Assembly: GCA_051362555.1 (NCBI GenBank)
Contig: CM120640.1
Location: 8,928,001 to 8,992,000 of the forward strand
Direction: 5' to 3'
Source: Lingula anatina
Lineage: Eukaryota; Animalia; Brachiopoda
DNA length: 64,000 nucleotides
Under the pieces are notes generated by a model. It was not told the origin of the DNA. It did no database searches and saw nothing but the letters and a program-made list of their open reading frames with translations. Position numbers and translations under genes: made by a program. Of the stretch, positions 26,965-49,972 are shown in pieces. Each line of letters opens with the position of its first letter. Within the stretch, counting starts at the first letter, position 1.

Positions 26965-27977
26965 TCAAATCCTGTGTTTCAATTCCTCATAGAAGTTGAT
27001 GGCACGTTTGGATTTCAGCAGACAATCTTCCCAATCTGGCCAGAACTTTGCCTTCATTCGCTCCAAATACTGGCAAACGTTTATGCATTCCACTGAAAAT
27101 AATTGTTTTGGCAAGTGAGGAAATTTTCCAAAAATAGTAAATATAATAATAATAATAATAGTAATAATGAAATTGGTAAAGAGATATAAAACCATTAGAT
27201 ACAAAGCTTCATTCTGATGGAATAAGGTAATAATTCAACCCATTCAACCCATGCAAAAGAAATTTTTATGAAATACTGCATTGAATTATTAGTTTTATAA
27301 AACCAGTTTGCTAAAACAGGAGAGAAATATTTTTGAAGCTATTTTATTTGTGTTACCCCTATTATGCAAAAACTGTAAAAGTCTTTTAGTATTATTTACC
27401 CATCATTACAGTTTTCAGAGGGAGTCCATCTGGCATATGCCACAATATCTGTGACAGCATCCCCAGCAGAACACAGTCAATCTCACAAGGCTGATCCCCC
27501 ATGAAAAAGGCCTTGTCCCCTGAAACCAGTTTCATATAACTCATCAGTCTGTCTGAAATGGAACTTAACTGTTCTTTCATGCAAAAGTCTCCCATGGAGA
27601 TTTATTACTGCAATGTCACCCTGTTTGGACCCCTTCTTAGATTCTCTTATGCTAAGATACACACCCAGAAATATTTACAGTATTTGGCCTGTCTTTACCA
27701 CATATCTGAAAAAATAATTATTATTGCAACAGCCTTCTCCAGCAAAGAGGATGGTGTTTAATTGGCTAAACCCATACCTAGAAAGGCAGAGATTGCTCTC
27801 AGATCATCAGCTCCTATCTGCTCCACTTGTTCTTTGGAGTGGCGACCTATCCCATGTGACCAACTACTTTTTCTGAAGTAGCGTAATATTATTTTTCTTG
27901 CAATCCAGGAGAGAGGCCATCTGACGTATAGCCCAATGAAACTGACATCTATATACGAATATGTCAGCAGAATGCAC
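26965..27977 (-). CDS. FAX-like alternative 3' module: exon 4c (27977-27778), 5c (27519-27400), 6c (27092-26965)
   Basis: The translation is intact: (W)CILLTYSYIDVSFIGLYVRWPLSWIARKIILRYFRKSSWSHGIGRHSKEQVEQIGADDLRAISAFL-GDKAFFMGDQPCEIDCVLLGMLSQILWHMPDGLPLKTVMM-VECINVCQYLERMKAKFWPDWEDCLLKSKRAINFYEELKHRI*. Splice sites are canonical and phases match FAX exons 4-6. A minus-strand AATAAA lies at 26716-26721. No exons 1-3 were seen between 27978 and 30280. Confidence 0.85.
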
Positions 27978-28165
27978 CTAAGAATAAATGGAAATAATTA
28001 GAAACTGAATTCAATCCTTACCGGCAATACAGATATTTGTATTTTAATTGCTTTGCACACCTTGTCTCTACTGTTTCTGGTTCACTTGCAAAGACAAAGC
28101 CACGGGTAAAATGGAAGAAGACGAAAAGACACCACTCATTAAGCACACACATTCTGATAATGTTA

Positions 28166-28405
28166 AGCCTAGGTCCCAACTACGTTTTGGACGCATGTTT
28201 TTTAGGTTCCTTGTGTCCGACTAGGACGCAGCTAGATGGCACATAGCAGCTGTTGATCATGTCAAAAAGTTTCTAAGTGCTGTTTGCGTCCTCCAAAAGC
28301 TGCACGATGGACGTGCTCCTCACGCACGAACTCCCATGTTTTCCCCCCTTTTTTTTGGCCATAGACCACACGTAGCAGCCCATACTTTCAGTTGGGACCT
28401 GGGCT
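28166..28405. mobile_element. MITE, PIF/Harbinger-like
   Basis: TIRs AGCCTAGGTCCCAACT / AGTTGGGACCTGGGCT, flanked by TTA on both sides. Confidence 0.75.
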
Positions 28406-30280
28406 TTATGTATTTTCAGAAGGTTGGGTATATTGATCCAAGTTGATCCCTGGTAATTGGAAATCTCAATAGTTCATATATGATGATGTTTAAGGAAAAA
28501 GTACCAGATTGAGTTACAGAGCAAATAGACCATCCAATAAAATGAGAGGCAACTTGACCGATTTGATAAAATATGAACATAATTTGACTGAAATTTTCAA
28601 GATGGGCATATTGGTTGACGAAAATATTATGGTTTAAGGCAATAAAAATGGAATATACCCAATGCTAATTTACCTCTCAAATACTAGTACCTTCATCTTG
28701 GTGGCCAATAAAAATTACAATAACCTCTCGACTCAAATCTTTTCCAAAATATTACTCCTCATTTCAGACTAGTTTATTTATGTAAATTCCAAAGATATAA
28801 ATCTCCTACTTCCAGTTTCACAAAGAACATCACTTCCATCACTGAGGTACAGTTAAAAATAAAGTTTAAGAAAAAAGTCATTGCTCTGCATTTAACTGAA
28901 GTTTATTGCCACCGACTGTTCCTACTCTATTACAATTATTTCATTATGAAAAAATTTCTCTGTGCATATATGACAATAACTATGGCCTGTTTATTTCGTA
29001 TATCCAAAAAAGGAACAAAAGCAATCAACATTCACATTTTGTAATTGAAGGGTTCATTAAAATATACATAAAGAAACACAAATTAAGACAACCATACAAT
29101 AAGTATAATTCAATAAACTCTTCAATAAACTCTTGAAATCACCAAAAAATGTAACATATAATAGTAAAGCATAATAAGCTCTAGAAACACTTTTAATTCC
29201 TTGGAAAAAATAGGTGACTATATAAAATGCTTTACAAATTATCTGATTTACACTGCAACCTGAACTGTTAGCTATAACAATAACCATAACCTGAAATATT
29301 CAAGAAAAAAGCGATTTGTATCGAAAATATCAAGCACATTATGTGCAATCATATATACATGCTAACATACAAAGTGTATCAGCATTGTAGCATTAATGAA
29401 GGGAGGTATAACATACATTTTTGAAAAAAAACAAACAAAAAAACAATACAAATGTTGTTAGTTTCCAAAATGTGTACTTTCAAACAGGTGAATTATAAAA
29501 ACTCTGCTTATTTCACAAGTGCACAACCATTACATTCATAAAATCAAGTGTTAACTGTATATCAAAATATCTTGCATATTAACTATGTGCTTTCAAAGTC
29601 AGCATTGTAGCAATTGTATACAGAGGTATACAAATGAACATACCAGTATTGTTGCTAAAACAGTAAAAATGTTGTTACTTTCCCTTAACACTAATACCAG
29701 AAAAGGAACCACAAAAAACTTGTGTCAAAAAATATATATATTAACATCGAAAATAAATTGTATACTATGTTGGACTATCAAAACTATTTCATCAATGACT
29801 GTTATGATCCCCATTCTGCATCAGTAAAACTATGGACCTGTTCACTGAGCCAAAATCTACCTTTGCTGGGTCCTTATGTGTATATCTGAACATCAGTAGC
29901 ACCAAGAATTAAGAGATTGGGTAGGCAGAAATCATTCAGTAGTAAATGGTTGATACATCACACAAAACTGTATCCATAGTTAAGCAATAGTCTTATGGTT
30001 TATGTATACATGCAGAAAAAGAAATCAAACTTCACATGTTCAAATCATTTGGGTAGTCAATGTTTATCACCTGTACTTATGAAATTACTTCTGACATATG
30101 TAATATATCCACAGGGTCAAGGTACTGTTGGTGCGAATTTCTATCAAAGCACTTCCCTTCAATTGGCATCTCCACATTTAATAATTCTTCATATTTCTCA
30201 GTAAGTAAAATTATTTGCTCCTCAGTTTTTATTCCATTGATTTATGTAATCTTCATCTTATATTCTAACACTGTATAATC

Positions 30281-33200
30281 TTATTCCATCTTCTTTCTTT
30301 CAGGTTCAGTGATATTTTCATCCCAGTCTGGCCAAAAGCGCTCTTTCATTCTGTAGCAATATTCAATGAGGTTTGGAAACTCTTCTGCAACGAATGTCAT
30401 AGTATAATCATATATTAGATAGTATAATCACAAAGGCTTCGTTCACATGCAATGTCTATTTTCTATTTTCGGTATGTCTTATGATCACGGTCTGTGCACT
30501 GAATATCCCGCCGCGTAATTACTGGCAGCGCGAGCCAGTTACTTATAGTAACTTATAGTAACGTAATTACTGGCAGCGCGAGCCAGTTACTTATAGTAAC
30601 TTATAGTAACTGGCTCGCGCTGCCAGTAATTACGCCGCGGGATATTCAGTGCACAGACCGTGATCATAAGACATACCGAAAATAGAAAATAGAAAATAGA
30701 CATTGCATGTGAACAAAGCCAAAGAACCCTTAAAGCCACAATGAATACAAGACCTTTATACATACATACATATATCATATATACATATATCATTGCAATT
30801 TTAACAAGGTATATCCCATTCAAAACCATATTAGCAAATTAAGATCTAAAGCCCATTTTCAAGTTCCAAAATTCTAATTTTTATCATTTTGAATGAAAAT
30901 CAGCAGTCTCAATATCCATTATGAGAGTGGCTCAAAAATGAGAAACTTGGTATTCAAGCAAACCATCCTTCCTAAAATATAATACAATTCAGCAATGCTT
31001 GACAGACTTTGGCTTGTATTCAATAAAGGCAACTGACTCTCAGAAGATTTAGATTGAATTACATTTAGATACAATTGAAGATAATATCTACCAACTTCAC
31101 TAATCAGGCACTGGCCAGTGAACCTACTTTTGATCCATATTTCATGTGGAGAATTTGGCATTTGCCAGACTACTTGGGCCAGCATACCAAAGACGGCACA
31201 GTCCGCCTCACAGGGCTCATCCCCCATCAGGAATGGCTTCTGACCTGAAATTATCAACAGGTTATCTTCATATATTAGGTACCAGGTATTCTTTCCATGG
31301 CATGTTTAAATGGGATGCTGCACCAAGCAATTTCATAAATTTATAGAAAACCATACTCATATCAATTACTGTAGTTTAAGACTTGCATCTACCTTAAACT
31401 TTTCTTGAACATTTAGAGGTCAAAAAGGATAAAAACATAGTAAACATACAATTATAATGATGATTGATACTTTGTAGTACCAGTAGTTTATGACAGTTGG
31501 CATTATATCCCTTACTAAATACCAAGTCTAGTATAGAGGCATTAACACATATATACATATGTTACCATATTTGTTTAAATAAAATATAACACCTGAAAGT
31601 TAATCAGGCTAATAAAAGGTAAAGGTGCATGTAAATATAATGCTAAACTTTGGTTTATGAAAATAGCATCACAGTAAGTAAAGAAACAACTGAAATATCT
31701 GTTAGATGCCTCTAGTACAACTGATGAGTTAGTGCAATTGTTGTCTGGCTGAAGCAAAATTAAAAACAAATTACACGCAGCTACACCACTAATAGCATGA
31801 GGTACACTATTTCCTGCAAAATAAAGCAGTTTGTTCAAGATTATACTGAAAGTTAAACCGGTGAATACATTGTCATAGCATACACTATTCAATTCCTACA
31901 CAATTTGAAAGTTATTATACCTCTGAATGCTTTTGTCCAACACGTAGGACTTTTTCAGTCAATCTGAGACAGTTCCTGGTGAACATCATTCACTATAACA
32001 ATGCCCCAGATGACTTTCTGATGTACAGTGTATTTTATCTGTCTGAATCTACTAATGAAACAGCAAACCATCTCCATATATCTATCCTCACCTTAAAAAC
32101 TTAATGTTCTAATTTAGTTCTTACTCAGATAATCAGACAAAGCTTTCAGGTCATCCTTCCCAATTTTTAACACTTCCTCTTTGCTGTGACGTCCTATTCC
32201 ATGTCCGTGCACTTCAGAATTGACTGTTCTCCTTATCAAGAACAAGGGCACAGACAAGCGGAGATTTTGAAACAAATATTGCAGATCCTTCTTTGTCCCA
32301 TACAACCAACGCTGCATGACTAACGTCCTGGAAATGCAGAGTGCACTTTACCAGTATATTAGGGCAAACAATGAGTGTTAGACCTTTAAAAAACTTAAAT
32401 CACCAAGAAATTTACTCAATACAGGGGCGGATTTAGGCCATCTTCTGGGTCTTCCGGAAGACGGTCAGATTTTCAAGTTTACATTGACGGGTATCTAATG
32501 TTTTCTGTCGGAAGACGGTCAAAATAGAGGATGGTTCAACAAAGATCATTTAGAAGACTGTCAGAAAATATCCCTGGTTCCGCCCCTGCAATACCATATA
32601 AAATTTAGTAGTCTCATTTATAATTATATAAAAATTTTACAAGTGAAGTAAGCCAGTCTCCATCTCCAGTCTGGTTCAAAAATTAGAAATTTAACACTCA
32701 AAACTTAATTTACTGGTTGTAATTTTGTAAATATCTTGTTGATTTAGGAAAATTAATAATGATCTAATTCCCAGGAAAAAAGTTTTGTTATATTATTTTT
32801 AACAGTACTGTTATGTTAAAGCTCAACATTCATCGTGTCTTGTAACTTTATGAGAAGTGATTTTAAAATCCTTTAAAGTTCTAATCTCCCTTTTAAATAG
32901 CCAGATCTTATAGCTAAAGGGGATGTTGCATCCTTTATAAGAAAACATGTTATGAAATATCATTCATTATCACAGTGAAATGAAAAACAAAAAATAAATG
33001 TAATTCTGACCATAGACAAATATAATCTGCCCAGGTTCTGACTTGACTTAATCCAAGTTTGAATATGTAACCAAAAGGAGCACTAAAAAAATATTAAAAT
33101 TAAGTTTTTGAAGAGTGTATGATGAAAGGTGTTTTTCTAATAAACACAGGTGTCAAGCCTCTGGAGACAGTCATACCCTGACCTTGGTAAGAACATGAGA

Positions 33201-36200
33201 TCTTTGCATAGACAGCATATGCCGTGGTGTATTAAGGGATGTCCTGACCTCCCCCTCCCCTTCGATTTCTGAAAAAAATCACACCAATGGCCCTCTCTTG
33301 TAATTAAAATTTTTACCTCCCCCCCCCCCCCCTTCGATTTCTGAAAAAAATCACACCAGTGGTCCCCTTTTAAAATACAAGAATTTTGACTAGCTGAATC
33401 ATAGTTTTGAACTGTACCGAATGGCTCCATTTGCCCTCTAAATACCAAAAGGGACAATCAGATATTTTACAATGGTTTTCCTTGCCATTTGAAAGCCAGT
33501 CTTCTGAAAATGTTTAAGAAATCAACTCATTTTAGTTACATACACTGGAAAAGCAAGGAAACAAATTCTCTAACATGGAGCTGTGTTATACAAATGAAAA
33601 TCTTGGTGTTTGTGAGTTTTAAAATATGCCAGTTATTGAGGGAATTAAAAGCAAAGCATCATCTACAGTTCAATTTCAGTCTATTACTAATCAATCCACC
33701 ATTAAATCAACATTAGTAGTAGTATTACATGAGGGAAATTGCTTTGTTACAAAAATAATGTAAGGGGAGGAAAGTTTAGAAATCACAGAAGAATCAGACT
33801 GTGAGTTTTAAAAATGGAAATAATCTAAAACAAAATTACCTAAGAAGGTGCCAAGAGCTTGGATATCTTGCTGAAATATTGACATGACTTCTTTGCTGGT
33901 GTGCCTTCCCATACCTTGGGCTTTAGCATATCCAACAGCTTTTCCTTTTAATTTGTAGTAGAAGAAAAGGGCAACAGGTCTTGGGTAAGGAAATAGTTTA
34001 CAAACTTCCTTTTTGGAGTCATGAATCCAGTTCCACGAAAATAAAACCCTGAGATGTAAATGTCTGTATACAGTTATCATCTTCTGAGCATTCAATTTTT
34101 TATTTCCCTTCTTTTCCTTTATACTTTTTCAAAGCAGCTTATATTGAATAATATGATCCTTTTGCTGTAAACTGATTCAATTAAGTGATGACTCATTGTA
34201 GTAATTTTGTATGAAAAGGTTGAACACAATAAACACTGAATAACAGTTGCAACACTTTGAAGAGGCATGTATAGAACCTGATTTGGGACTTATTGTGCTT
34301 TTGTTTATTTGATGGAGGGTAATGTGTAACTGTTGCTTGCAGTTACAAATATCACCATACACAACTTTATATTATTCAATTAGTTATATTGACCTTAACA
34401 TTTAAGAACATTTCAGCATTTCAACATTTCTCTAGCAAATTGTGTTGTGTAGTTGTTTATATATCATATGGTATATTTTGCTTACGTATAATATAATGTG
34501 TACATGTGCAGTTGTTATAATAACTTTACACATTGATTTTTTTCTATTGCATATTTTCAATGAATAAAGTATTTTTGAAACATATCGATATAAATGACAT
34601 AAATGACATGGAGACATTAAAAAAGGCCTGAGTCTGAAAGAAATACAATGTAATAACCCAAATGTTACAAAATGTCATCAAACTGAGTCCAGTGCAGTAA
34701 AGCCACCAATCAATCTAACACCCCATTTCCATAGATTAGATCGACCTACTTTAGATCGACCTAACTCCCTGGGGGTTCACGCTAAATAGCTGTCAGCCGG
34801 GCGGACACGAAAGTTAATTACCCCCTTAAAGCTTGTAGTAGGCGGGATGGACATTTAAGTCGGATTATCTGAAAGTAATCTAGTGAGACTCCCCGCGGGG
34901 ATAGATCGATCTAAAATCTATGGGAATAGAGCCTAAAAGATCACAGTTTAAATTCCACTTCACAGAATGTAGCACAGTTTGTATTCACTAACCATTTCCA
35001 GCAGTACTGAAAATTACACTTGCCATTTAATTTGATCTTTCTTTTTTTTATTCAGAACTAACCAAACATCAGGTACTTCACAAATGGCGCATGAAAAATT
35101 CACAATAACTCAACAACCATATCTCACCAGTAGAGATTTTCCTCTGTCATCTTCTGGAAAGCTCTGGCAATGGCCTTCTGTTCAGCAGTGAGGTGGGCAT
35201 TAAGATCTATACCACGTTCCTTGTTCAGGTACTCAATACAGAACTGAGAATCTGCCACTGCCACACCATTGTATTCCATCCATGGCGTCTTCCCCTTGGA
35301 TGAGAATTTGCCTGTATGGTCATTCTGAAATTGGAGTTTGTACTACATTAGTGAACAATAAACAGCATGCTATGAACAATAAACAGCATGCTAAACTTTT
35401 TAAACTTCCAGGAACAGATCTTAATCTGTATATATATTCCTTATGACCTAGAACAACCAGTCTATTAATGTCACAGAGCTTGACAAGGTCTACAGATGTC
35501 ACAGAGACTGTAAAGAAGGCTCTTCATGACAGTAGAAGTCTTGTACATGTATATCACTAAGTTTATATCCTTGACTTGAGATGAGGTTTTATGTACTGCA
35601 GTAAATGTAAGCTTAAAAAGTTGAAAAAGTCTTAGTAAAAATGTGTCATATTTTCAGGACAATTAACTTAGAACTGCAAAAGCTTATGTGAAAACTTATA
35701 CAACTTAAAACAGTTTATTTGGGCTTAGAAAATGTAAAACATCATTTTTGACAAAATGGGTAAAATGAATGACATAATTCACTGACCCAAATTATCAAAT
35801 TTTAAAAGTCTCAAATATTACAGCATTAATTCTTATTTCATCAAAGTCTAACCAAGCATCAAACTGCTAATTTACAAGGCTTTTCAACTGGGAAATACCT
35901 CATAAGGAATTTTAGCCATCCTTAGATATGTTTCCAGCTTCAATGGAAAAGGTGAAATACTTGGTGCTTTGGGACCACGTCCAAATTGATACAGGATCAC
36001 TGTGTCTTTGGGGGCAATTTTCTTCTCCCTCAAATGTAAAAATATGTCAGTATAAATAAAATAAGCACAGGTAAATTACTATTTTCATGATGACTATTTT
36101 CATTTGAAAATGAAAATAGTCATCATTAAAATATCAATATGGTTGTTCACAAGTTCCTCAAAATTTGAAATTCAGGGAAATATTTTTAAAAAATTACCCC

Positions 36201-37247
36201 CCTGCCTTGTTTCCCATTATAACTCTTCTGTGTGTGCTTTGGAAGATACTCTACTGCATATATGTATCAATTTGTACTTCCTATATTGCACGCAAAGTGA
36301 CCAAAAATCTTTAATTTGATTATACATACACCTTCTTCACATGCTTAATTACTACTCTGCTTTGGAAGTCCTGGTGTTAAATTTTACACTGTATGTTGAT
36401 GCCTAGCTCCTTTACTCAGTTAATTGTTAAGTGACAAATTTCAAGTCTCTTTTACGGGGGCATCTCGATAGTCCGAAGGTTCATTGGTCCGATGGTTCAT
36501 TGGTCCGAAAAGTGGTAACATTTTCATCGATTTTGTAATCAAGGGTTCATTGGTCCGAAGGTTCTATAGCGAACATTCGGACCAATGAACCTTCGGACTA
36601 TTGAACCTTCGGACTATTGCTACGGCCCCCTCTTTTACATTATAAAGTGGGTGAAAATCAAGTGGGGCAACTTTTGAGTCATTTTTGAAAGTGGCATCTA
36701 AAAAAAAAATAACAATTTAAACATGGTGTCACTAAAACTTAAACATTTTTTTTATCCAAACGAGATGGCACAAAAATTTTAACAGCTTATTCGTACTCAG
36801 ACACATAGTTATCTGGGTATTTTAATACATTTTTTGAAATTTAAAAATTTTAAGTCTCTAGCCCACATGAGCTTAATTAGAAGAAGGTGTGGACCCAAGT
36901 TTAACCCTAGCCTGAGGGCATGCAGTTCATGGGCCTGCGGGCCCTTTACTTCAGCCTTAACTTCAATGCATAGAAATACATGTACATATGCAAATTTCTA
37001 TGCTTCAATCAGTGTAAGGCTTTACTCTGACCTTGAATACATACATGTAGCACTGCAGCCATGAGGCCCTATCTGCAGCAAATTCGGAGCAAAATTACAT
37101 GTAGGGTACATACTATAAGGGGCCTGCCAACTTTATTCACCTTCGAGTAAACCGCTTCACAATGACGTATCCAAAAACAACAACACCAGCTACTGCACAG
37201 CTGAGTTTAAACCACTTGGAACCAAGTATTTCATGTAGATTCTCCAT
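30281..37247 (-). CDS. FAXC: Failed axon connections homolog (FAX/metaxin-like GST fold), gene B, about 285-287 aa
   Basis: Exons: E1 37247-37141 (MENLHEILGSKWFKLSCAVAGVVVFGYVIVKRFTR, TM anchor); E2 36028-35899 (DTVILYQFGRGPKAPSISPFPLKLETYLRMAKIPYE); E3 35324-35128 (SSKGKTPWMEYNG..ADSQFCIEYL..EENLYW); E4a 34048-33840 or E4b 32327-32125; E5 31244-31128 (KPFLMGDEPCEADCAVFGMLAQ); E6 30384-30281 (FPNLIEYCYRMKERFWPDWDE). These motifs are diagnostic of the FAX family; one-to-one orthology with FAXC is not established. Confidence 0.92.
30435..30720. mobile_element. Fully palindromic MITE (Harbinger-like termini)
   Basis: GGCTTCGTTCACATGCAATGTCTATTTTCTATTTTCGG... is mirrored by ...CCGAAAATAGAAAATAG..ACATTGCATGTGAACAAAGCC, with an internal direct duplication of about 47 bp at the centre. 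Confidence 0.85.
32125..32327 (-). CDS. FAX gene B variable exon 4b (203 nt)
   Basis: ttccag|G TLVMQRWLYGTKKDLQYLFQNLRLSVPLFLIRRTVNSEVHGHGIGRHSKEEVLKIGKDDLKALSDYL A|gtaag; phase 2 to phase 1. Confidence 0.9.
32422..32588. mobile_element. Small non-autonomous DNA transposon
   Basis: TIRs CAGGGGCGGA / TCCGCCCCTG, with CAATA directly repeated on both flanks. Confidence 0.75.
33222..33447 (-). mobile_element. Fragment of a dispersed DNA-transposon family also present at 37543 and 39258
   Basis: The reverse complement shares AACTATGATTCAGCTAGTCAAAATTC and CAGAAATCGAAGGGG with the other copies; it has an internal duplication. Confidence 0.7.
33840..34048 (-). CDS. FAX gene B variable exon 4a (209 nt)
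   Basis: tctcag|G VLFSWNWIHDSKKEVCKLFPYPRPVALFFYYKLKGKAVGYAKAQGMGRHTSKEVMSIFQQDIQALGTFL G|gtaat; phase 2 to phase 1. Confidence 0.9.
34722..34932. mobile_element. MITE (same family as 42299-42537)
   Basis: Imperfect TIRs CATTTCCATAGATTAGATCGA / TCGATCTAAAATCTATGGGAAT. Shares GATCGACCTAACTCCCTGGGGGTTCACGCT and AGTGAGACTCCCC with the second copy. Confidence 0.75.
36456..36630. mobile_element. MITE with 15-bp subterminal repeats and an 8-9 bp target-site duplication
   Basis: GGGGGC...GCCCCC ends, GGTTCATTGGTCCGA repeats inverted at the two ends, and (C)TCTTTTAC duplicated on both flanks. Confidence 0.85.
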
Positions 37248-37542
37248 TGCGCCACTTGCTATGTTCACACCTGTACTGTATCCACTATTATACTAGACTG
37301 TCACCGTGTGACCTACTTTTCAGGCTTTTTAACCTTGGACTACTTCAAAATGGGGGTTGATTTACATGTAAAATCGCGACCAATTTTCGTAAGGCAGATA
37401 ACTTCCATTTCTATGAAATGCGGTTCATTCTAAAACGCCTCTGAAACACGCAGAAAAAATTCAGCTGGAGAATTGCATACAGAATGTGATCTTCAACTAT
37501 TTATACATCTTTGGACGAAGTTTCTCTAACGCACTCCTATTA

Positions 37543-37774
37543 CAGAGGCGGATCAAGGATTATTTGAAGGGGGTCCCCCCAACCCCAGTTGGCGATGGGT
37601 TCGGGTTCGAAAAAATTAGGTATTTTAGAGGGCGAACGGTGCCATTTGGTACGGTTTAGAACTATGATTCAGCTAGTCAAAATTCTAATTTCAAGAGAGG
37701 ACCAGAAATCGAAGGGGCGGGGGGGGGGGGGGGCAGGACCAGCCTGACCCCCCTACCCTCTTAATCCGCCGCTG
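37543..37774. mobile_element. Non-autonomous DNA transposon upstream of FAX gene B
   Basis: TIRs CAGAGGCGGATCAAG / CTTAATCCGCCGCTG, flanked by CTATTA and CTATAA. Related copies lie at 39258 and 33222. Confidence 0.75.
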
Positions 37775-38319
37775 CTATAACGCTCTCTGGTAACTCGGAT
37801 GAATAAAACTACTTTTCTCGCCAGCAAAACCACAGGTGGAATATGACGACTCCTGTTTACGCCATACCAAGTCACATGTCATCAAACCTAGCAAATTATT
37901 CTTTAGTCACTAGGCCTACGTGCAGATTATAAAAAAAATTCGCCCAAGCTCGTAAATCATGGTAAATACGGGTGCTAACGCAAAAAACTTCGCGCTAGGT
38001 ACATCCCAGTTGAACACCTGTAGTTAGAGACCACGCCTGGCTCAAAACCTTCCTTTTGGATATGGAAAACGTTATTTTTAAAACATGTCCGTTCATCTAA
38101 AGAACGACCTAAACGGTGACGATAATTACTCACAGTTAACTCTTACGCATAAATAAAATTCGTTTCATTTTAACAAACACGGATATGCTATACGAGTATG
38201 AAAATGACCCAATGGCATATTTTATGTCCAAATATATTTCAAAGTTACTTTATTGTCTTTCAAACTTTAAGTACGATTACCCTTCAAATGTCCCAGTATA
38301 TTGGCCAGCAATTTCAAAA

Positions 38320-39257: not shown

Positions 39258-39460
39258 ACAGGGGTGGATCAGGATTATTTGAAGGGGGTCCGCGGGGGAG
39301 TCAAGGGGAGCCGACCCTCCCCTTGGCGTGGTGTTCGGGGCCGATGAAGGTGCCATTTGGTACGGCTTAGAACTATGAATCAACCAGTCAATATTCTAAT
39401 TTCAAGGGGGAACATTGGTGTGATTTTTTTCAGAAATCGAAGGGGGGGGGGGGTCGGTTA
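39258..39460 (+). mobile_element. Partial copy of the 37543 transposon family
   Basis: CAGGGGTGGATCAGGATTATTTGAAGGGGGTCC...GGTGCCATTTGGTACGGCTTAGAACTATGA matches 37543-37720. Confidence 0.75.
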
Positions 39461-41731
39461 CAGATCGCACATTTAATTTCCAACTTATTCAAAACGTCGT
39501 TAAGTTTTTTACAAACATAATAACGAAGGAAAATGCTTTTCTACACTTCATTTTTTTTTAATCAAATAGCCCAATAAGAAGACAAAACATTAAAGATAAT
39601 TGACAATTCTTCTCTGAGGTTTTGCGACAAATTTTGCCTTCGATACTTTAACAGTGCCGCTTTTGATAACAGTATTGAGTATACCAGAAAAATACAATTA
39701 ATTGAAACTAACATTTAACATACCCTCTCCCACGGACAAAAAGTAAAATAAGAAAAGAGAGAACGCTTAATTACATCGTTTTTCTATGGGTTTTTAATGA
39801 TGCAACACATTATTTGAATAATACTTTTATCTTAACTATATGAAAAGCAGTTGTTTACCATCAAAATTCAAGGAGAGCAGGTAGTCTGGATGATTGGTGC
39901 TATATATTGGCCAAACTGCTCAGAATGTGGAAAAAGCATGAAACTTGCCACAAATGTTCTTTGGACTATGCTGATCATTTTCAAGGGTAGTGCCCAAAAT
40001 GGTTCTTTTTGATGGATTCACCTATGCCCCCACCTCTCCCCCGATAAATCCAGTCCTCAAATGGTGACAACAAACGTAAAACACTGAAAAAAGCATAGAG
40101 TGTTATTGGTATGGAATGATCTATCTATTAAAGTTGCTTTTGGTTCCGTTCCATTAACATTTCATCCAATATCAATATTTTAAACTCATTCAGAATTCTG
40201 CATGAAAGACACCCTCCCAGGATGGTTTCAGATTGCCTTTGATCTATAGCCACCTTTCGCCATAAACACTTTCCTTGTCTTCTCGAATGATTGTTCATAA
40301 AACCATCATTCATATAGCTTTAATGCTAAAAACGTTGCAAACATCATGGGGAACAATCTCAAAACAAAATTTTTCTGTATCCAAGTCATAACCACAAACC
40401 CTTTCTGTACTAGTAGCTACTTAGTAACCACTATTGACAAATTGAAAACAGCTTTAAAGTTGTTTTATCAGATCAACCTGCTCTTTATTCTCTTCCAGAG
40501 TATCAGTTACTATTAGTATCAGTTATGTATCTTATTTTCCATAGAACTTAGAGCAAACTCATGTATTACTGTAATTGTCATATTCCCCATTGCTTCATTT
40601 GTTTGATAAAGGGGAATTAAGAGTAAAAACAAAATAAGTAAAATACTCAAGAAACTTTGGGAAGCAATAAGGAATTTATTGTCACTCTTCATCACAAAGC
40701 AATTTCCTATGTAATAATGTATTAATATGTATCTTTAGTCCTTTGATAATTATATATTGAAAATCTGAGTGCTCCAGTTTTCAAGTTAAGAAATTATTTC
40801 TCCTGTAAAAGAAAAAGATAACTCTGAGCTTCAGCCCTAGAAAAATGGGATGTCATAGATTATTTTCTTTTCAAAACTGAATCTTAAAAACAATCCAATT
40901 AACGTGAATATTTTACATGGGAACATATTTTATCTTACCACTTTGTGTTAAAATATAAAATAAAATGATACATGACAGAGTAATACATGTAGAAAACAAT
41001 TAACTGTAGATCTTCCAGGATGGACACAAAAATATATTAATCTAGATCTAAATTAAATGCAAAAAGAAAAGTAATGATTTTTTTTTAAGTGCTGGAAAAA
41101 TTTGAACATAAAATACCAGGTGGTTCCCTTGTAAAAATTAAAAATTTATATAATTTTTAGTTACAAAACTAGGTGAAAAAATATAATTCTGATTAACTCT
41201 ATGTCAACTCAATATAAAATATATATATATCAAGATAAGGAATGTTTCCACGTAAATATGAACTGATTACAGTATAACCTAATAACACCTTCAATTATTA
41301 TTTCGAAAGATTAAAATATGGAAGACAAATCAAGATGCTGATAAGTTTATGCATTTTCAAGCTGCTTCACTGGTGATTCTGGGAACAGAACTAGAAAGCA
41401 CAAAAACAAATTGTCCACCTAAGCATTACAAAGTTTTTTCTTTAGAAATTTACTCCATTGTGTAGCACATTCACAGGCATCATGGCACTATTTCCACTTT
41501 TGATTTTGGTTCAAGAGATAATCCTGCACATATCCCATGTCAACAATACATGGTTGTTTTTTCTTCATTCAATGAATACATCACTCCTCTTTCCACGTGG
41601 ATTTATATTTTAGGTGTGCAATAGTACTTTCCCATCAGTACAGTTTTGGGTTTAGTGATAGGCACCTCTCAGTCTATTCCTATTCCGTCATTTGGATTCA
41701 GGTTAACTATTTGCACATTGTACAACTGTTA

Positions 41732-44700
41732 TTATTCCATCTTCTTTCTTTCAGGTTCAGTGATATTTTCATCCCAATCTGGCCAAAAGCGTTCTTTCAT
41801 TCTGTAGCAATATTCAGTGAGGTTTGGAAATTCCTCTGAAAGTTGAAAAGAAAATTACTTCTGGTTAATTGGTAACAGAAAACTGGTTTGGTATATCTGG
41901 TTTCATGAATCAGTGAAATAAATGTGAAATGCAGTTACTTTGTTTCATTTATTTCACTCATTTAAAGAGATAAAATGCAATGAATACTGTAATTCCATCC
42001 AGGAGAGTTTGGAACTGTCAACAACCATCATCTCCTCCCCCTTGCTTGTCTAAAAACTTTACAGAAGGGACATCACATAAGACTGCAACAGTCTTGAACA
42101 GATATTGCCACACAGTAGTCAAACTTGACATCCAAATCACGCAGATGTGGATTGGAGTGATATCAACAGATCAGATCCAAATGTGGATTGTTTGATATTA
42201 ACAGATTCCAAAAAAGAATGGTGTCTAACAAACCATTTGTTGTAGACAAACATGTGAGATGCACTTTGACTATATTAGATATGGTCCCTCATAAACTGCA
42301 TTCCCACAGATTTAGATCAATCCATCTGGATCGACCTAACTCCCTGGGGGTTCACGCTTAAAGCTGTCAGCTCAAGAGGCTTAAATGTCTGTCACGCCTA
42401 CCAAATCAGCTAGGGTAAAGATAATTACCCCCTAACAGCTTTACTAGGCTAACAGACATTTAAGCCAGCCAAGTTGACAGAATTTTAGTGAGACTCCCCA
42501 TGGGGATAGATCAATCTAAATATCTGTGGGAATGGTCTCATAGTGTTATGTGACCACTGCCACACTGACCAATGAACCTACCTTTGATCCACTTCTCATG
42601 TGGAGAATTTGGCATATGCCAGACAACTTGGGCCAGCATACCAAAGATGGCGCAGTCCGTCTCACAGGGCTCATCCCCCATCAGGAATGGCTTCTGACCT
42701 GAAATTATCAGTGGGTCATCCTCATACATTAAGTTATGGGCATTGCCTAAATTTTATTAGTAATTAGGTTGATGTGAACAAAACAGCATTTATAACTAGT
42801 AAAAGGATAAAAAATCAAATAGAAGAATTTTAATAGGGTGCAAAAAGTCTAGCCATAGGCTTGCTACTTCCTTGAGTAGTTGTTAAAACAAAGTGTAAAG
42901 AGATGTTAAACATCAGATCCAATAAATTTAGTATTGACTTGTTATTAAAACCATCCATGTGATAATGACAAAATGTATCAGTAACTAAAAAAAAAAAAAA
43001 AAAAAAGCTAAAACCATAACATGCATTATTCTCAATAAGTATCAATGATAATAAAACAATACATCTCTACAATTAAATCTACACCTACAAACAAAATATC
43101 TAAAACATCTCTAAAAATTGCACAAAAACAGCAATTAAAATGACAATATATTTTTTGTGCTTAAGTTACATGAAAATTAAATCCGACTTTAAAGATTTTT
43201 CATTTGTAAGTCATCTTACAAATGGTTGAGTAAAAATTCTTTAAAAAATCATTTGACTATATAAAAAGTAAAAAATCAAATAAAATTAATACATTTCTCT
43301 CTTCTGATCATGAATTGGCAAATCCTAAAATTAAGCAGGGTCATCTAGCACTGCAGTACATAGGGAAGGAATGAAGAAAGTTAGTCTATATAGCATCCCC
43401 AGTACCTGAACCACAAGATGCAAGATGTAAGCCTAATTGATGTAACTATAAGCCTGATTTGGTATAATTTGGTTGGAAGTATATGCAGAAGAACCATCTG
43501 AAGTTTCTCCGACATTATACACCTTTAACAGATTTTTCTCCCAAAAGGATTTTCCCTGCATAACACTTAAGAACACTGCATAAAAGGAAACAGCTGAAAA
43601 TATTAAATAAATAAATTAACAAATAAATAAATTTGGATAAAAGATGTTTTTTTAAACAGTGATCATTATGCTATCAAACTTGCTTCTGAATTAAAATACT
43701 CCAAAAACAAACATTTTAAAGACAAATTTCTACATCAGCTTGTATCTTGTTGGAAGAACTAAGCTGGCTCTCAAAGAAGCGAGGTGTGTTATACCATAAG
43801 CAGAACCAAATGTTAGACTGTCTTGTATTGATGCTGTTGACCTGTGCAAATTTTAATTAAAAATTTGAAAGACTAGATTACGTAAGTTGATATAAGTGAA
43901 TATTTGAATGTTAAAAAACTTGTATTCTGTCCCTTTCATTGAGGTATGATGAATAGATTTCAAACAAATATTTTTACAATTCACAGTCTATCAAAAGCAC
44001 CAATTACCTCACTAACTAAGCACACGGGACCTGGTAAACTAATTTAGTCCTTACTCAGATATTTAGACAAAGCTTCAAAATCTTGTTTTCCAATCTTATA
44101 AATATCTTCTCTACTGTGACGCCCTATTCCATGTCCTTTCATTGCAGACAGTATTCTGCGCCTGACCAGTGGAAGGATAAGACGAAGAAATAACCCTCCT
44201 TGAGGAATCAAATACATCAGAACCTCAGTCTCCCCATATAACCAACGATGACAAACAAGGGCCCTGAAAATGCACAATATCAATACTGCTACTAATCATA
44301 TTTATTTTAGTAAGTTCATAAGATACCTCCAACAGCAAGTTCTCTTTCCCAGCTTTAAGTCTGTAATATGAAGCATGACATGGATTGGAAGGAGTTTTCA
44401 AGACCTCTGAATTGCACATGATATTGGGGAAACACATTTGAATACATTTTTTTACATTGAAGTTAATGAAATGGTTTCCAAAGTATGACTATCTGTTTTC
44501 ATGCAACAGCAGTTCACATACCTTTTGTAAAGACTTGCCTATGTTATACAGACATCAAAACACATATATGAGGGCAAACCATATCATAGCTTTAAATCCT
44601 TTTTTTACCTAGAGCATGTATCAATTTTTTAAAGATCTCAACTTTCATCCTTCAATATTTTGGGCTCCAAATTGAAAACCAAATCTCGGATATTCTTATG

Positions 44701-47700
44701 AATGCTACAAATAAAGACACTTCTTTATCAATTATCTGACATTGCCTGCAGTTCATATAGCACAACACTTTTTCTCTGCCATGGAGTCCCATTTCATAAT
44801 CACAAGATTGGTTCTGCAGTAGGCATCTGTAACACAATTATCTTAGACCTGTGAAGCAGTGGTCTAAAAAAGCTGCCATATTTCCAACGTTGGACAATTA
44901 TGGTTTGAAATGTCATCATGAATCAGTAGATATAACATGAATAAGCAGAGTCCAGAGCTGATGACTGTCACATCTATTGACATCTATATAACCATGCAAT
45001 GACTGAAAATATTATTTGTTTTGAGGAGTTATTTTAAAATGACACAGCTACAAAAACGAGGTATCTTGATACATTAATAATAGGGGCAATAGAAAGAAGG
45101 ATCCAAGTACCTACTGATCTGCCGACTAAATATGGTAGACCACAGTTCAAAAGCAATGCCGCTGATACCTGATGGTCTCCCCGACTCCACATGCGCCTTT
45201 AAACAGATAAAATCTCTGCTCCAAAGTTTAATTGCTAGGCCCCTGCAGCAAAGGCGTGTGTGGAGGAGGGGAGACCACCAGGAATCACTTTTGAACTGTG
45301 GTCGACCATATTTAGTCGGCAGATGAGTAAGTACTGGGATCATCCATTCTGAATGGGGCCATAGATTAATGATCAATTTAATTTGCTTTTTGTGATAAAG
45401 AGCAGTGTATTTCTATGCTTGTGAGCTATATTCTACTATTTAATTTGCTTTTGTGATACAGAGCAGTGTATTTCTATGCCTGTGAGCAATATTCTACTAT
45501 AAGTCTATATAGGCAGTGTGTGTGTGTATAAATATATACAAAAACATCTTATATTACTATTTAAAAAATTAAATGAAAATCAATACTTATAACATGCAGA
45601 TTGGAAGTTAGTATTAGGGCAAAGTAAGTGCTTTTAGTAACAGATATCAAATGGATAAATGCATTATAGGATCAAGGATGGCATGCTCCACACTGTAAAA
45701 AAAAAAAAAAAAACACCAAACCTAATACCTAAAAAATCAGACAGAGAGTTTAAGTCATTAAAGCCAATGTGAAGTATGTCATCCTTAGCGTGCCTCCCAA
45801 TGCCATGACCCCACATTTCTTGTTGAATATTCCTTCGTATCAATCTGGACAGTAACCACCGAACTAGACCTTTGTATGGTATCACTCTGTATAAAGCTGT
45901 AAGATCATCTCCAAATGTGACATAGCACATAGTCCTGTAAAACCAAACCAATGACAAAAACTTTTATCATTGGACTGTTCGGTTAAAAGATTACCAAGAA
46001 GGAAAATAAAAAGATAGGCTAAAAACAATATTTGAAACAATGGAACAGAATATAAAAACGTTTACATTATTGCTACACAAACCTGTATTGTGAATCTTTG
46101 TCTAATCACACTCATTAAAATATGCAAAAAATGACTAAGACTCCATTGTGGTATAAAAAAAAATATCTGGCTATGGGCAATGCAGAAGCAATAACTTTCA
46201 ATCATCAAATGTGTAAGTGAGCAGTCTACAAAGATGTTTCAGTGATAAGTATAAATATCAACAGCAAAAATATCCAGTTATTTAAATAACCATAACCTAT
46301 CAATAAGTCATAGTTATGAAAAAAATAACATGGAATGAGGAACAACAGACTTAACTGTAACTTGACATCAGTGCTACTTACTGCTAACTTGGACAACCCC
46401 ACTTTAATTCCAATGGGCTTTAAATCATGATTATAGTTATCAACATTATAGTAAAAGCTTCTTTATTAAAAGAAAGAAATATTGGATAGTTGTCAGATCA
46501 TTACTTTCAATGAATATATATATATATATATATATACTAAAATATCAATAACTTGCTTACTGGCCTGTAGAAAATTTAAAGAATCACTAACATTTTTTTC
46601 TTTTGGAGATTTTAATCCAACTTAAACATTATCACTAAAACTTTGTTTTTCTTTAAATTTCTCACCAATAGAGATTCTCCTCTGTCATCTTCTGGAAGGC
46701 TCTGGCAATGGCCTTCTGTTCAGCAGTGAGGTGGGCATTAAGATCTATACCACGTTCCTTGTTCAGGTACTCAATACAGAACTGAGAATCTGCCACTACC
46801 ACACCATTGTATTCCATCCATGGCGTCTTCCCCTTGGATGAGAATTTGCCTGTATGGTCATTCTGAAATTAAAGTTGGTACTACAGTAGTAATCAATAAA
46901 CAACATGCTGAATTTTTTAAAATGGCTTTTGCTAATGCCCCTATTTCACACAGACCACGAATCCCACGAATCGCCAGGAATTGACAAATTTCAGGATTCG
47001 TGATTGAATCGTAATCAGTCGACTAATCAGTTCGTGAAGTTCTTAACAGATTCGTATATATACGTAGTCAGTTCTTGCAATTCTTGATCAATCACGAACT
47101 GAATACGATTCAACAACGAATCCTGAAATTTGTCATTTCCTGGCAATTCGTGGGATTCGTGGTCTTTGTGAAACAGGGGCATAAAAGAGAGTACCTTTTA
47201 CTAAGAACTTGATCCTTTCCAAGCTAATAGAAAAATGTCTCCAGATGTCTTGCAGTCATGCACAATGTAAGTTTATCAAAAAACAGATTGTCAATTGTCA
47301 TCTTAAACTTGATCTCACTATGACTACGCTATCTATACTTAAAATTTCAATGTCAAAAATCTTATATCAGATCATTTATTGCATACCTCATAAGGAATTT
47401 TAGCCATCCTTAGATATGTTTCCAGTTTCAATGGAAAAGGTGAAATACTTGGTGCTTTGGGACCCCGCCCTATCTGATACAGGATCACTGTGTCTTTTGG
47501 GGCAATTTTCTTCTCTCTGAAATATCAAAATTTTACATTCAACCAAGTTGTTCAATGTATGTGCTGAAGAAGGGTTTTTCACCAAAAACAGCTTATCATC
47601 ACAGTTTTACATCAGGGTTTATATGCTGGACTGAAATCCATGAGTAAAAGGGTAAGCACAGTGCATTTCAGCATAGTGTGCAGGTGTGAAGGATGCAGAG

Positions 47701-49972
47701 AGACTCCTTAATTAGAACTAAAATACTGACACAATCAAAGTGTATGTGCCAATGTCAGCATAAACAAACTTAAGTGACAATAAATGAGAGTTTATAATCT
47801 GACGGGTAAAATGACATTGATGGAAAATGGTGACTTATAACTTAAAATCAGATACATCCAGTGTCTGTATATTAAAATTTTTGAAGTGTACACGACAAAA
47901 ATATGAAAAAAATCAGAGCCTTTATTATATATGCAGTAACATCTGTGAGCCTAGTTCAATAACTCAGTGACAATATTCAGTACTTATCAACCAATCAGAT
48001 CAAACAAAGTTACTCAGTGATATAATGGCATTTCTCTTATGTATGAAGTTCAAGATGGTCATCCTGGTCACACAATAAAATAGCAGATCTAGCTACTATC
48101 ATGTTTCTAGCACTCTCAAAAGGACCATCAAAACAAAATGTGGGCCTATTCCCTCTCCCCCCCTTTCTTAGTTAAAAAAAGAAACAGTTTCCTAGATCTG
48201 CCAAAGAGCAAAAGTAAATGGCTGCATGTGCAGAATTCAGAAGTAGTCATTTCATGCCATGTCAAACAGTATGTAACTTACCTTTGAAAGTATGCCAAAG
48301 CTTCTTAAAAAGATGAAAAATAAAAGGAAGTTAAAATCTTATGGGCCATTTGGGCATTTTTTAAATCAGGTGAGATGCAGTTTCTAGTAGCAATACCATA
48401 AACTACCCTTTTCTTCAATGATTTTCTGCCAACTGGGGGTCATGACTTCAGCACAGAAGATTTATGATAAATCTAGGATACTATAATACATATTTTATAT
48501 GCAATAACAACAACGACAATCTGATTCTACCTACAACAGCTGAGCAGTTCTGATCAAGGCAACCTGTACAGAGCTATCTAGCTGTTTACTCTGAAGACAG
48601 CCAACATTTATGGGTTATGTAATCTTAGACAGGGTTCCCATACTTAGACGGTCCCCAAAACTCCCTGAAAGTATCAAGGTATATACCAAGATTATTTGAT
48701 GAATCAAAAAAAAAAAAAAAATGTTTTTCCAAGCCTGCACTCTCTAAATAAGCCTCAACAGAGTTTAATCAACAGTGATTCACCTCCATATAACCGAGTG
48801 CTGTTATGTACCTTGATGAAACCGGTTCTATAGTTTCTATGATGTGCTTACTCAAAGTCACCTGCAGCTCAGATATCCAGTTAATGGTAACTTTATAAGA
48901 CTAGTCCATTGGTGATCCACTAAATTGTGTAAGCACAACCAATCTCAATAGAAAACTTTATCGAACATAGTGTATTTGGCCTTGAATATATTAATAGTCA
49001 ACAGAATATGATGTATGCAAATTCATGGAGTTGGTCCGTTTTCTTACGTTAAACTAGTGTTGCTTTATTTGTAATGTGTACACCTGTAATTTTGTATTTT
49101 CATCTCATATCATATATCTTTCTCTATAACAATAAGTGTTAAAGACAAATAATACTTGATATTAATTAAGAGGCATACCCAGCCAATATTGTTCAACTGA
49201 ATTTGATAAATCATGTAAAGAAAATGACAAAGAAAACAAATTGCAATATGATTAAAGTGTTAATTGCCTAACAATGAGAAAAGAAAAGAAATTTATCTTA
49301 GATAGAAATAAAAAGGTTAATAATTTGTAGTAAGGAAACTGAAATAGTGGTTTTAATCCACATCCACCCACCCCCTATCACAATATTTTTGATATCCAAA
49401 GAATGTAATACATTTACCATTTCATGTCACAATATACCAAAAATATAAATGACAAAATTGGCATGTAAAATAAGATAAATGTTGAAGCAAGTTTCTCTTA
49501 AACAAACCTGCTTAGAAAACATATAAGCTTCTATGTGTAAAGGAATTTCAGTGTCAAGTTCTACGCATCTACAATTTCATCTATTCAGTGTATGACGCCC
49601 CACATTGCGACTATAAGTCATGATTAGTACACTAGGAACTTTTAAACCTGAGCTCGGTCCTAACAGTAAAATAGGAGAGACTGACTTTTGCCATTCAACC
49701 ACACAGCATGAATTTTGCCGCATCTTGCACAACCACAAGCGTGACTCTGCATTGCAGCTGCAAGTTCTGTCGCAGTTGTGAAATCAGGCGTACATGTAGA
49801 TCTACATTATCTGATGTATTTTTTAAAGCCATATTTTTGCCAGGCCCAGCCCACTATTTTCTATATACCTTCTTGTGAGCCTCTTCACAATAACGTATCC
49901 TAAAACAACGCTTGCCACGGAGCAGCCAACTTTAAACCACAAGGTTCCCATTACATCTCTGAGCCCCTCCAT
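41732..49972 (-). CDS. FAXC: Failed axon connections homolog (FAX/metaxin-like GST fold), gene A, about 285-286 aa
   Basis: Exons: E1 49972-49869 (MEGLRDVMGTLWFKVGCSVASVVLGYVIVKRLTR); E2 47516-47387; E3 46862-46666; E4a 45934-45729 or E4b 44263-44055; E5 42698-42582; E6 41835-41732. All introns are GT-AG, and the CDS is in frame with exactly one exon 4 (858 or 861 nt). Confidence 0.92.
42299..42537. mobile_element. MITE (same family as 34722-34932)
   Basis: TIRs CATTCCCACAGAT / ATCTGTGGGAATG, plus internal homology to the 34722 copy. Confidence 0.75.
44055..44263 (-). CDS. FAX gene A variable exon 4b (209 nt)
   Basis: tttcag|G ALVCHRWLYGETEVLMYLIPQGGLFLRLILPLVRRRILSAMKGHGIGRHSREDIYKIGKQDFEALSKYL A|gtaag. 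Confidence 0.9.
44725..44905 (-). pseudogene. Degenerate exon-4 copy (pseudo-exon) in FAX gene A
   Basis: The minus strand gives TIIVQRWKYGS..., YEMGLHGREKVL and ELQAMSDN, collinear with TLVMQRWLYGT, HGIGRHSKEEVL and DLKALSDY. It has frameshifts, a stop codon and a decayed acceptor (catttcaa). Confidence 0.65.
45081..45363. mobile_element. Palindromic MITE between exons 4a and 4b of gene A
   Basis: Long inverted arms ATCTGCCGACTAAATATGGTAGACCACAGTTCAAAAG / CTTTTGAACTGTGGTCGACCATATTTAGTCGGCAGAT. Confidence 0.8.
45377..45500. repeat. Tandem duplication of about 61 bp
   Basis: TTTAATTTGCTTTTGTGATA..GAGCAGTGTATTTCTATGC.TGTGAGC.ATATTCTACTAT occurs twice. Confidence 0.9.
45729..45934 (-). CDS. 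FAX gene A variable exon 4a (206 nt)
   Basis: ttacag|G TMCYVTFGDDLTALYRVIPYKGLVRWLLSRLIRRNIQQEMWGHGIGRHAKDDILHIGFNDLNSLSDFL G|gtatt. Confidence 0.9.
46936..47181. mobile_element. PIF/Harbinger-like MITE
   Basis: Long TIRs TGCCCCTATTTCACACAGACCACGAATCCCACGAAT... / ...ATTCGTGGGATTCGTGGTCTTTGTGAAACAGGGGCA, with a TAA target-site duplication. Confidence 0.88.

What the first reader, a model, noticed from the sequence alone, without database searches (positions are those of the whole stretch)
26965..49972. Constant/variable-exon system in a tandem FAX (metaxin-like GST) cluster: five intact, mutually exclusive versions of exon 4
Seen in sequence: each of two FAX genes has single exons 1, 2, 3, 5 and 6 but two homologous exon-4 copies in tandem (A: 45934-45729 and 44263-44055; B: 34048-33840 and 32327-32125). 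A fifth copy lies at 27977-27778. All five are open, GT-AG bounded, phase 2 to phase 1, and 200-209 nt long (each 2 mod 3), so including two or none breaks the frame. They share only the (H/Q)G(I/M)GRH and DxxxLSxxL-like motifs; the first 40 or so residues are highly variable. Established: FAX proteins (Drosophila Fax, C. elegans CDR proteins, metaxin relatives) have a GST fold. In canonical GSTs the early C-domain helices help form the hydrophobic substrate site, and Anopheles GSTd1 uses a shared 5' exon with alternative 3' exons. Inference: the locus swaps a specificity module onto a constant membrane-anchored scaffold, giving at least five proteins from two promoters. I do not know of mutually exclusive exon arrays described for FAX genes, but I cannot check the literature.
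Basis: partly seen in the sequence, partly recalled or inferred. Interest (0 to 1): 0.9.

Follow-up and report, generated by a model that had tools for sequence, protein, structure and literature searches.

The report
Swappable lid exons in FAX GSTs
Two neighbouring GST-fold FAX genes of a brachiopod carry five intact versions of one exon, predicted to form the lid over the glutathione site; RNA reads show one version spliced in while its neighbour is skipped, so the locus likely makes five proteins, which would bind different small molecules.

Summary
Confirmed at the stated coordinates: five open, AG/GT-bounded exon-4 copies; a family profile finds 2 exon 2, 2 exon 3, 5 exon 4, 3 exon 5, 3 exon 6. 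Correction: the fifth copy has its own exons 5-6, so it heads an alternative 3' module, not a cassette. The exons match RefSeq Lingula anatina proteins; RefSeq already models B4a, B4b, the 3' module and A4a, but no A4b model was found. RNA from 4 runs: E3-B4b joints skipping B4a (22 reads), B4b-E5 (20), indirect A4b-E5 (26); no B4a, 4a-4b or E3-E5 joint among 15 listed, 14 unseen. Exon 4 encodes the helices alpha4b/4c 'lid' and alpha5, the family's least conserved core part. Closest solved fold: the active epoxide GST StyI (Z 27.6). A4b/B4b dN/dS 0.38; constant exons look homogenised (dS 0.08-0.2 against about 1). No exclusivity RNA structure found; frame plus NMD likely. Function untested. 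Known principle; no FAX case found in 10 paper searches. Interest 0.5.

The parts
49869..49972 (-). Gene A exon 1 (ATG; hydrophobic N-terminal helix)
   Evidence: 34/34 aa to RefSeq XP_023931415.1
47387..47516 (-). Gene A exon 2 (beta1, SPF motif, alpha1)
   Evidence: (PF17172)
46666..46862 (-). Gene A exon 3 (KxKxP, DS motifs, first part of alpha4)
   Evidence: (PF17172 E 2.8e-18, PF10568)
45729..45934 (-). A4a: exon-4 copy of the type conserved in molluscs
44055..44263 (-). A4b: exon-4 copy, no public protein model found
   Evidence: indirect RNA support; dN/dS 0.38 against B4b
42582..42698 (-). Gene A exon 5
   Evidence: PF17171
41732..41835 (-). Gene A exon 6 with stop
37141..37247 (-). 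Gene B exon 1 (ATG)
   Evidence: 35/35 aa to XP_013418978/80/81
35899..36028 (-). Gene B exon 2
   Evidence: E2-E3 joint 44/13/54/25 reads; A and B reads cross-map
35128..35324 (-). Gene B exon 3 (common donor for B4a, B4b, C4)
33840..34048 (-). B4a: most divergent exon-4 copy
   Evidence: 69/69 aa in RefSeq X3; folds, pLDDT 93.9; low depth and no listed joint
32125..32327 (-). B4b: exon-4 copy, spliced E3-B4b-E5
   Evidence: 12/0/9/1 and 9/0/11/0 joint reads; RefSeq X4
31128..31244 (-). Gene B exon 5
30281..30384 (-). Gene B exon 6 with stop; AATAAA at 30233
27778..27977 (-). C4: first exon of the alternative 3' module
27400..27519 (-). C5: own exon 5 of the 3' module (47-50% aa to A5/B5)
   Evidence: (PF17171 E 5.3e-10)
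26965..27092 (-). C6: own exon 6 with stop; AATAAA at 26721

Best explanation
Two tandem FAX (metaxin-like GST) genes each carry two intact versions of exon 4, and gene B has a third version heading its own 3' end; reads show one version used while its neighbour is skipped, so the locus likely makes five membrane-anchored proteins that share the predicted glutathione-binding half and differ in the predicted lid, which would tune which hydrophobic compounds they bind or conjugate. Steps: (1) shown: anatomy and frame logic; (2) shown for B4b, indirect for A4b, RefSeq models only for A4a, B4a and the 3' module: single-copy splicing; (3) inferred: exclusivity comes from competing acceptors, with two-copy and no-copy products removed by nonsense-mediated decay; (4) predicted: exon 4 = end of alpha4, lid helices alpha4b/4c, GHGIGRH loop, alpha5; (5) inferred: constant exons of A and B are kept alike by gene conversion or strong shared constraint while exon 1 and exon 4 diverge; (6) inferred, untested: GST-type chemistry with lid-set specificity. 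Other animals vary the same segment between whole-gene paralogues; here it is done partly with exon copies.
For: Anatomy. RNA (4 of 9 listed runs, 6-25% of each read): E3-B4b joint skipping B4a 12/0/9/1 reads; B4b-E5 9/0/11/0; E5 reads that carry a 23-nt hit on B4b's GHGIGRH block after unaligned letters 15/2/5/4: that block is 22/23 identical in A4b and 15-16/23 in the other three copies, and the A4b/B4b match drops to 40/59 and 8/13 on either side, which marks them as likely A4b-E5; B4b use differs between samples (depth 9-15 in X1, X7; 0-1 in X4, X6). RefSeq XP_013418978-81 join B exon 3 to C4, B4a and B4b. Purifying selection: A4b/B4b dS 0.99, dN 0.38. Models of the B4b and B4a forms: pLDDT 93.9 both, same elements. 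Top-residue frequency in 95 homologues: alpha4b 0.21, alpha4c 0.33, against 0.56-0.79 for other core elements; SPF, KxKxP and DS motifs nearly invariant. Closest solved structure 9QD3 StyI, Z 27.6, rmsd 2.1 over 226, 31% identity, an enzyme that conjugates GSH to styrene oxide at 48 U/mg (PMC8552685, passages). Homologous MXEs generally change residues near functional sites (PMC7954323, abstract).
Against: No B4a joint among the 15 listed (14 weaker ones unseen); B4a depth 0-1 in three runs and 4-5 in X7, where flanking intron bins have 1.7-2.5. Absence of 4a-4b joints is weak evidence when 4a is barely used. AlphaFold models of human metaxins have the inserted helices blocking the glutathione site (PMC10452860, passage), and the next folds after StyI are non-catalytic SAM-complex subunits (Z about 20). 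No catalysis by an animal FAX protein was seen in the passages read. In run X7 the listed B4b variants are 7 non-synonymous to 2 synonymous (list truncated, 8-17 reads), which neutrality would also give.
Confidence: 0.6

Rival explanations
1. Same splicing, but the proteins are non-catalytic metaxin-like scaffolds; the basic, aromatic lid helices set membrane or partner binding rather than small-molecule specificity.
For: PMC10452860 (passages): inserted helices cover and block the G-site in metaxin models, and human FAXC is predicted to pair with MTX2. SAM-complex subunits rank second in fold. All five lids carry 5-7 K/R against 1-3 D/E and 4-10 aromatics, as membrane-surface helices do (recalled).
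Against: Near-invariant SPF, KxKxP and DS motifs in 95 animal homologues (their G-site role is recalled from canonical GSTs); StyI, with the same insertion in sequence alignment, is active; lineage-specific tandem expansions (10.64898/2026.01.05.697642 section 3.7) fit chemical-defence families.
Confidence: 0.3
2. The exon array is a by-product of tandem duplication; B4a (and perhaps others) is a rarely used or decaying copy, and choice among copies is unregulated.
For: B4a has the longest branch (1.84), 19% identity to the copy in the same position of gene A, and no listed joint.
Against: B4a is open, GT-AG bounded, scores 60 bits on the family profile like the others, folds equally well, and is modelled in RefSeq; synonymous sites are saturated against the other copies while the 3' part keeps pN 0.39-0.48 against pS 0.75-0.94.
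Confidence: 0.12
3. The C4-C5-C6 unit is a truncated third gene, or the 3' half of a gene whose own 5' half exists in other haplotypes, rather than an alternative end of gene B.
For: No direct E3-C4 reads were laid. In run X1 exon 3 is covered about three times deeper than exon 2 or exon 5, mostly in its 3' part, which is unexplained. RefSeq X1 and X2 differ by one residue inside exon 1, hinting at a second exon-1 copy in that assembly.
Against: RefSeq X1 has exon 1 identical to window B1 (35/35) joined through B-type exons 2-3 to C4-C6; no exon 1-3 trace lies between B6 and C4; phases fit; the unit is intact at dS about 2 or more from A/B.
Confidence: 0.12
4. Genes A and B are two haplotypes of one gene assembled in tandem.
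For: Constant exons are 92-98% identical in DNA.
Against: Exon 1 dS 1.17, exon 4b dS 0.99, 4a copies 19% aa; intron bodies score no better than shuffles apart from 36-47 nt before exons 3 and 5; RefSeq holds proteins of both genes from contigs of the same length.
Confidence: 0.02

Closest known systems
FAX/FAXC family (Pfam PF17172 GST_N_4, PF17171 GST_C_6, PF10568 Tom37); RefSeq Lingula anatina XP_013418978-81 and XP_023931415
   Same: Same proteins: four of the five exon-4 copies are 100% identical to these automated models.
   Different: No A4b model found; models are unnamed isoforms with no description of the exon array; three residues of B exons 2-3 differ from the window.
Tandem FAX gene clusters of molluscs and corals (e.g. 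Haliotis, Mytilus; 10.64898/2026.01.05.697642 section 3.7)
   Same: Paralogues differ most in the exon-4 segment (28 non-Lingula pairs with exons 2-3 at 85% or more and exon 4 under 75%).
   Different: Those appear as separate proteins differing in all exons; among 151 proteins aligned only the Lingula pairs had identical exons 2-3 with a different exon 4.
Alternatively spliced insect GSTs: Drosophila GstO2A/B (shared exon 1, different 3' exons; PMC4195677, passages); Anopheles GSTD1 splice variants (PMC1761136, figure legend; exon layout recalled)
   Same: Shared 5' part with alternative homologous 3' part, as in B exon 3 to C4-C6.
   Different: Here there are also internal cassette pairs that swap only one 67-69 aa segment between constant exons, in a membrane-anchored metaxin-like class.
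Homologous mutually exclusive exons from tandem exon duplication (PMC7954323, abstract)
   Same: Same-phase homologous neighbours, fold kept, variable residues near a functional site.
   Different: The copies are very divergent (33-40% within a gene) and the pair was duplicated with the whole gene.
StyI of Gordonia rubripertincta (PDB 9QD3)
   Same: Closest solved sequence (E 1e-22) and fold (Z 27.6); SPF, KxP, DS and GxG motifs align.
   Different: Bacterial, no N-terminal membrane helix in the aligned range, single gene; 31% identity does not transfer its substrate.

Membership tests
FAX/FAXC (metaxin-like GST) | GST_N_4 (PF17172) and GST_C_6 (PF17171) domains, often Tom37 | tested here: met
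   on single exons; precomputed domains of the RefSeq proteins
FAX/FAXC (metaxin-like GST) | Helices alpha4b and alpha4c inserted between alpha4 and alpha5 (PMC10452860 Fig. 4 legend) | tested here: met
   H126-154, H157-163, H170-187, H194-212; the same for B4a
FAX/FAXC (metaxin-like GST) | Best sequence hits are named FAX homologues | tested here: met
Catalytically active cytosolic-type GST | Glutathione-site motifs (Ser at start of alpha1, Pro before beta3, Asp/Glu-Ser before alpha3; roles recalled) | tested here: met
   S61 S/T 91 of 95, P93 92 of 95, D104 95 of 95, S105 S/T 95 of 95; aligned to StyI
Catalytically active cytosolic-type GST | Open glutathione site and turnover | not testable with these tools
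   model coordinates are not returned; no assay
Homologous mutually exclusive exons | Adjacent homologous exons, same phases, between constant exons | tested here: met
Homologous mutually exclusive exons | Each exon spliced alone in mRNA | tested here: inconclusive
   B4b direct, A4b indirect; A4a and B4a only in RefSeq models
Homologous mutually exclusive exons | Never included together | tested here: inconclusive
   no 4a-4b joint among 15 listed, 14 unseen, and B4a barely covered
Docking-site/selector MXE arrays (Dscam1 type; recalled) | Conserved intronic sequences that pair in competing ways | tested here: inconclusive
   best duplexes -29 to -32 kcal/mol against -25 to -34 for shuffles; no block conserved between A and B intron bodies; only two genes to compare
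UGT1A/protocadherin-type variable first exon arrays (recalled) | Variable exons are first exons with their own promoters | tested here: not met
   the variable exon is internal, with acceptor and donor

The most novel reading that the evidence does not exclude
The locus is a collapsed ancient paralogue cluster turned into a constant/variable system: lid exons older than the brachiopod-mollusc split were captured onto one scaffold, gene conversion keeps the constant exons of A and B interchangeable, and splicing across the array (A exon 3 to B exon 4s, B exon 4s to C exon 5; all in frame) gives more than five lid-defined detoxifying GSTs. It would be a natural domain-swap series that tests directly whether animal FAX proteins are enzymes and what the lid does. 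A4a sits inside a mollusc clade but one origin of the five copies is not rejected (p-AU 0.124).
Probability: 0.2. Interest if true: 0.72.

Novelty: new variant of a known kind. Interest (0 to 1): 0.5.

Why it matters
The biochemical function of animal FAX proteins is poorly known. This locus offers natural isoforms that are identical except for the lid segment, so one set of assays can show whether FAX proteins bind glutathione and whether the lid sets specificity. It also shows an internal-exon route to diversify a GST-fold family that other animals appear to diversify by whole-gene duplication, and one likely expressed isoform (A4b) missing from the protein collection searched. The principle (homologous exclusive exons, spliced GSTs) is known, and three forms of gene B are already in automated annotation, which caps the surprise.

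Tried and rejected
No whole genome was held, so copies outside the window were not counted. No indexed RNA holder was listed; only raw-read runs of the same species label. Search with A4b alone for longer proteins: 26 candidates, none scored (weak evidence). Docking/selector pairing: nothing above shuffles; the strong inverted repeats (45091-45350, 34750-34915) are self-contained hairpin repeats, the latter with a relative in another intron. A weak hit of B4a at 33430-33510 (E 0.15) was not recovered by the family profile and is taken as chance. Assigning reads to gene A or B by single letters fails in X7, where all exon-5 reads carry A-type letters at 31194 and 31206 although B4b-E5 joints exist. 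Trees of constant parts were unresolved; exons 2-3 are only slightly nearer the mollusc clade of A4a (67% against 61%). The same pattern in other species: none among 151 of 166 fetched proteins, but only the best 120 of 384 hits were listed and no other brachiopod was named. Paper searches gave no paper on FAX exon arrays by listing; two FAXC surveys had 0 hits for Lingula, exon and splic. Most subscription papers are outside the library and bioRxiv supplements were not seen. Earlier scan findings: none. No complex prediction was run.
Full report
Observation. I mapped all other exons. Gene A runs 49972-41732 and gene B 37247-30281, each with exons 1, 2, 3, 4a, 4b, 5, 6. The fifth copy (C4) is followed by its own exon 5 and exon 6 and has no exons 1-3 of its own. 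A profile built from 98 FAX proteins finds 2 exon 2, 2 exon 3, 5 exon 4, 3 exon 5 and 3 exon 6 in the window, and the five exon-4 copies score alike, 55-66 bits. One copy per transcript gives a full protein; two or none give a stop 89-312 nt before the last junction, beyond the usual 50-55 nt rule for nonsense-mediated decay (recalled).

Identity. Exon 3 finds RefSeq proteins of the brachiopod Lingula anatina first. XP_013418980 and 81 are gene B with 4a and with 4b; XP_013418978 and 79 join B-type exons 1-3 to C4-C5-C6; XP_023931415 is gene A with 4a, with exons 2-4a doubled, which the window does not show. So automated annotation already holds three forms of gene B. I did not see the read support of those models. 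No protein with A4b was found.

RNA. Nine raw RNA runs of the same species label were listed; I laid four on 31050-36100, reading 6-25% of each. Exon 3 to B4b, skipping B4a: 12, 0, 9, 1 reads (X1, X4, X7, X6). B4b to exon 5: 9, 0, 11, 0. A further joint, exon 5 to a short hit inside B4b with unaligned letters between, had 15, 2, 5, 4 reads and a side of exactly 23 nt in three runs. That 23-nt block is 22/23 identical in A4b and 15-16/23 in the other copies, and A4b differs from B4b on both sides of it, so these are likely A4b-exon 5 reads; this is inference. Against: no B4a joint, and no 4a-4b or exon 3-exon 5 joint, is among the 15 listed; 14 weaker joints were not shown. B4a depth is 0-1 in three runs and 4-5 in X7, about twice its flanking introns. 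B4b is used in two samples and hardly in two others; tissues are unknown. In the stranded runs the exonic reads fit a minus-strand RNA.

Evolution. Exon 1 (dS 1.17) and exon 4b (dS 0.99, dN 0.38) of A and B are far apart, but exons 2, 3, 5, 6 have dS 0.08-0.20 (few sites). Intron bodies do not align above shuffles; only 36-47 nt before exons 3 and 5 do. This excludes a haplotype doublet and suggests that the constant exons are homogenised by gene conversion (inference); in line with it, three residues of B exons 2-3 equal gene A in the window but differ in RefSeq. In a tree of 100 exon-4 segments (66 columns, bootstrap not settled) A4a falls in a starred clade of 27 rows whose named members are molluscs, A4b pairs with B4b, and B4a and C4 are long branches elsewhere. 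One origin for the five is not rejected (p-AU 0.124), so capture from old paralogues and local duplication with fast change both stand.

Structure. Models of the B4b and B4a forms have pLDDT 93.9 and the same elements. Exon 4 (residues 146-212) covers the end of alpha4, two short helices, the GHGIGRH loop and alpha5. PMC10452860 (passages and a figure legend) names these inserted helices alpha4b and alpha4c and predicts that they cover, and in human metaxins block, the glutathione site. Across 95 homologues they are the least conserved core elements (top-residue frequency 0.21-0.43 against 0.56-0.79), while the SPF, KxKxP and DS motifs in exons 2-3 are nearly invariant. The closest solved relative is the bacterial GST StyI (E 1e-22; Z 27.6, rmsd 2.1 over 226 residues), active on styrene oxide (PMC8552685, passages); SAM-complex subunits follow at Z about 20. 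I could not inspect coordinates, so 'lid over the site' rests on secondary structure and that paper.

Mechanism. Shown: anatomy, frame logic, B4b used alone. Inferred: exon 3 chooses one acceptor; wrong products are removed by decay; no pairing element was found. Inferred and untested: the lid sets ligand preference of a membrane-anchored GST-like protein (0.6 for the whole chain; about 0.9 for the exon choice itself). The main rival is a non-catalytic scaffold whose basic, aromatic lid binds membranes or partners (0.3). C. elegans CDR-1, a relative, is described as a cadmium-induced lysosomal membrane protein (10.1101/2024.01.02.573863, passages), which fits either.

Comparison. Shared 5' exons with alternative 3' exons are known in Drosophila GstO2 (PMC4195677, passages); homologous exclusive exons usually alter residues near functional sites (PMC7954323, abstract only). 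Invertebrate FAX genes often lie in clusters (10.64898/2026.01.05.697642, section 3.7), and paralogues differ most in this same segment (33 pairs, 5 of them Lingula isoform pairs with identical exons 2-3). Ten paper searches showed no account of exon arrays in FAX genes; two FAXC surveys do not mention Lingula, exons or splicing (term search). The library lacks most subscription papers.

Verdict. Real and expressed in part; a new variant of a known kind. It is still a clean natural swap series for a family of unclear function. Interest 0.5.

Noticed in passing
window 4473-23900, + strand: Multi-exon gene whose exons read like exportin-7/RanBP16 (recalled from motifs; the one exon scanned had no Pfam hit), convergent with the FAX 3' module.
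   Followed up: no
window 2287-3515, - strand: Tetraspanin exons (PF00335, E 2.6e-11), head to head with the gene above.
   Followed up: partly
window 2-808, + strand: 269-aa open frame that looks like the C-terminal end of a non-LTR retrotransposon protein (recalled; no Pfam hit).
   Followed up: no
window 13300-14934, 15385-16392, 8133-8685: An 817-nt tandem duplicate (97%), a 146-nt array of 6.9 copies (96%) and a 159-nt array of 3.5 copies, all intronic.
   Followed up: no
window 34714-34934 and 32420-32590: Intronic repeats with very deep RNA coverage on both strands (hundreds to about 2000-fold); the first is a hairpin element with a relative at 42299-42533. Likely dispersed MITE/SINE-like families.
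   Followed up: no
window 35128-35324, run X1: Exon 3 is covered up to 173-fold in its 3' part but 76-fold in its 5' part and exon 2 about 55-fold; other runs show no such excess. Unexplained: a divergent allele or an extra 5' half is possible.
   Followed up: partly
window 32150-32319, run X7: Nine listed variants in B4b, seven non-synonymous, all seven in the variable lid part; two synonymous in the conserved part (list truncated, low depth).
   Followed up: partly
window 44039-44054 and 32109-32124: The first 16 intron bases after exon 4b are 15/16 identical in genes A and B although the intron bodies are unrelated; possible splicing element.
   Followed up: no
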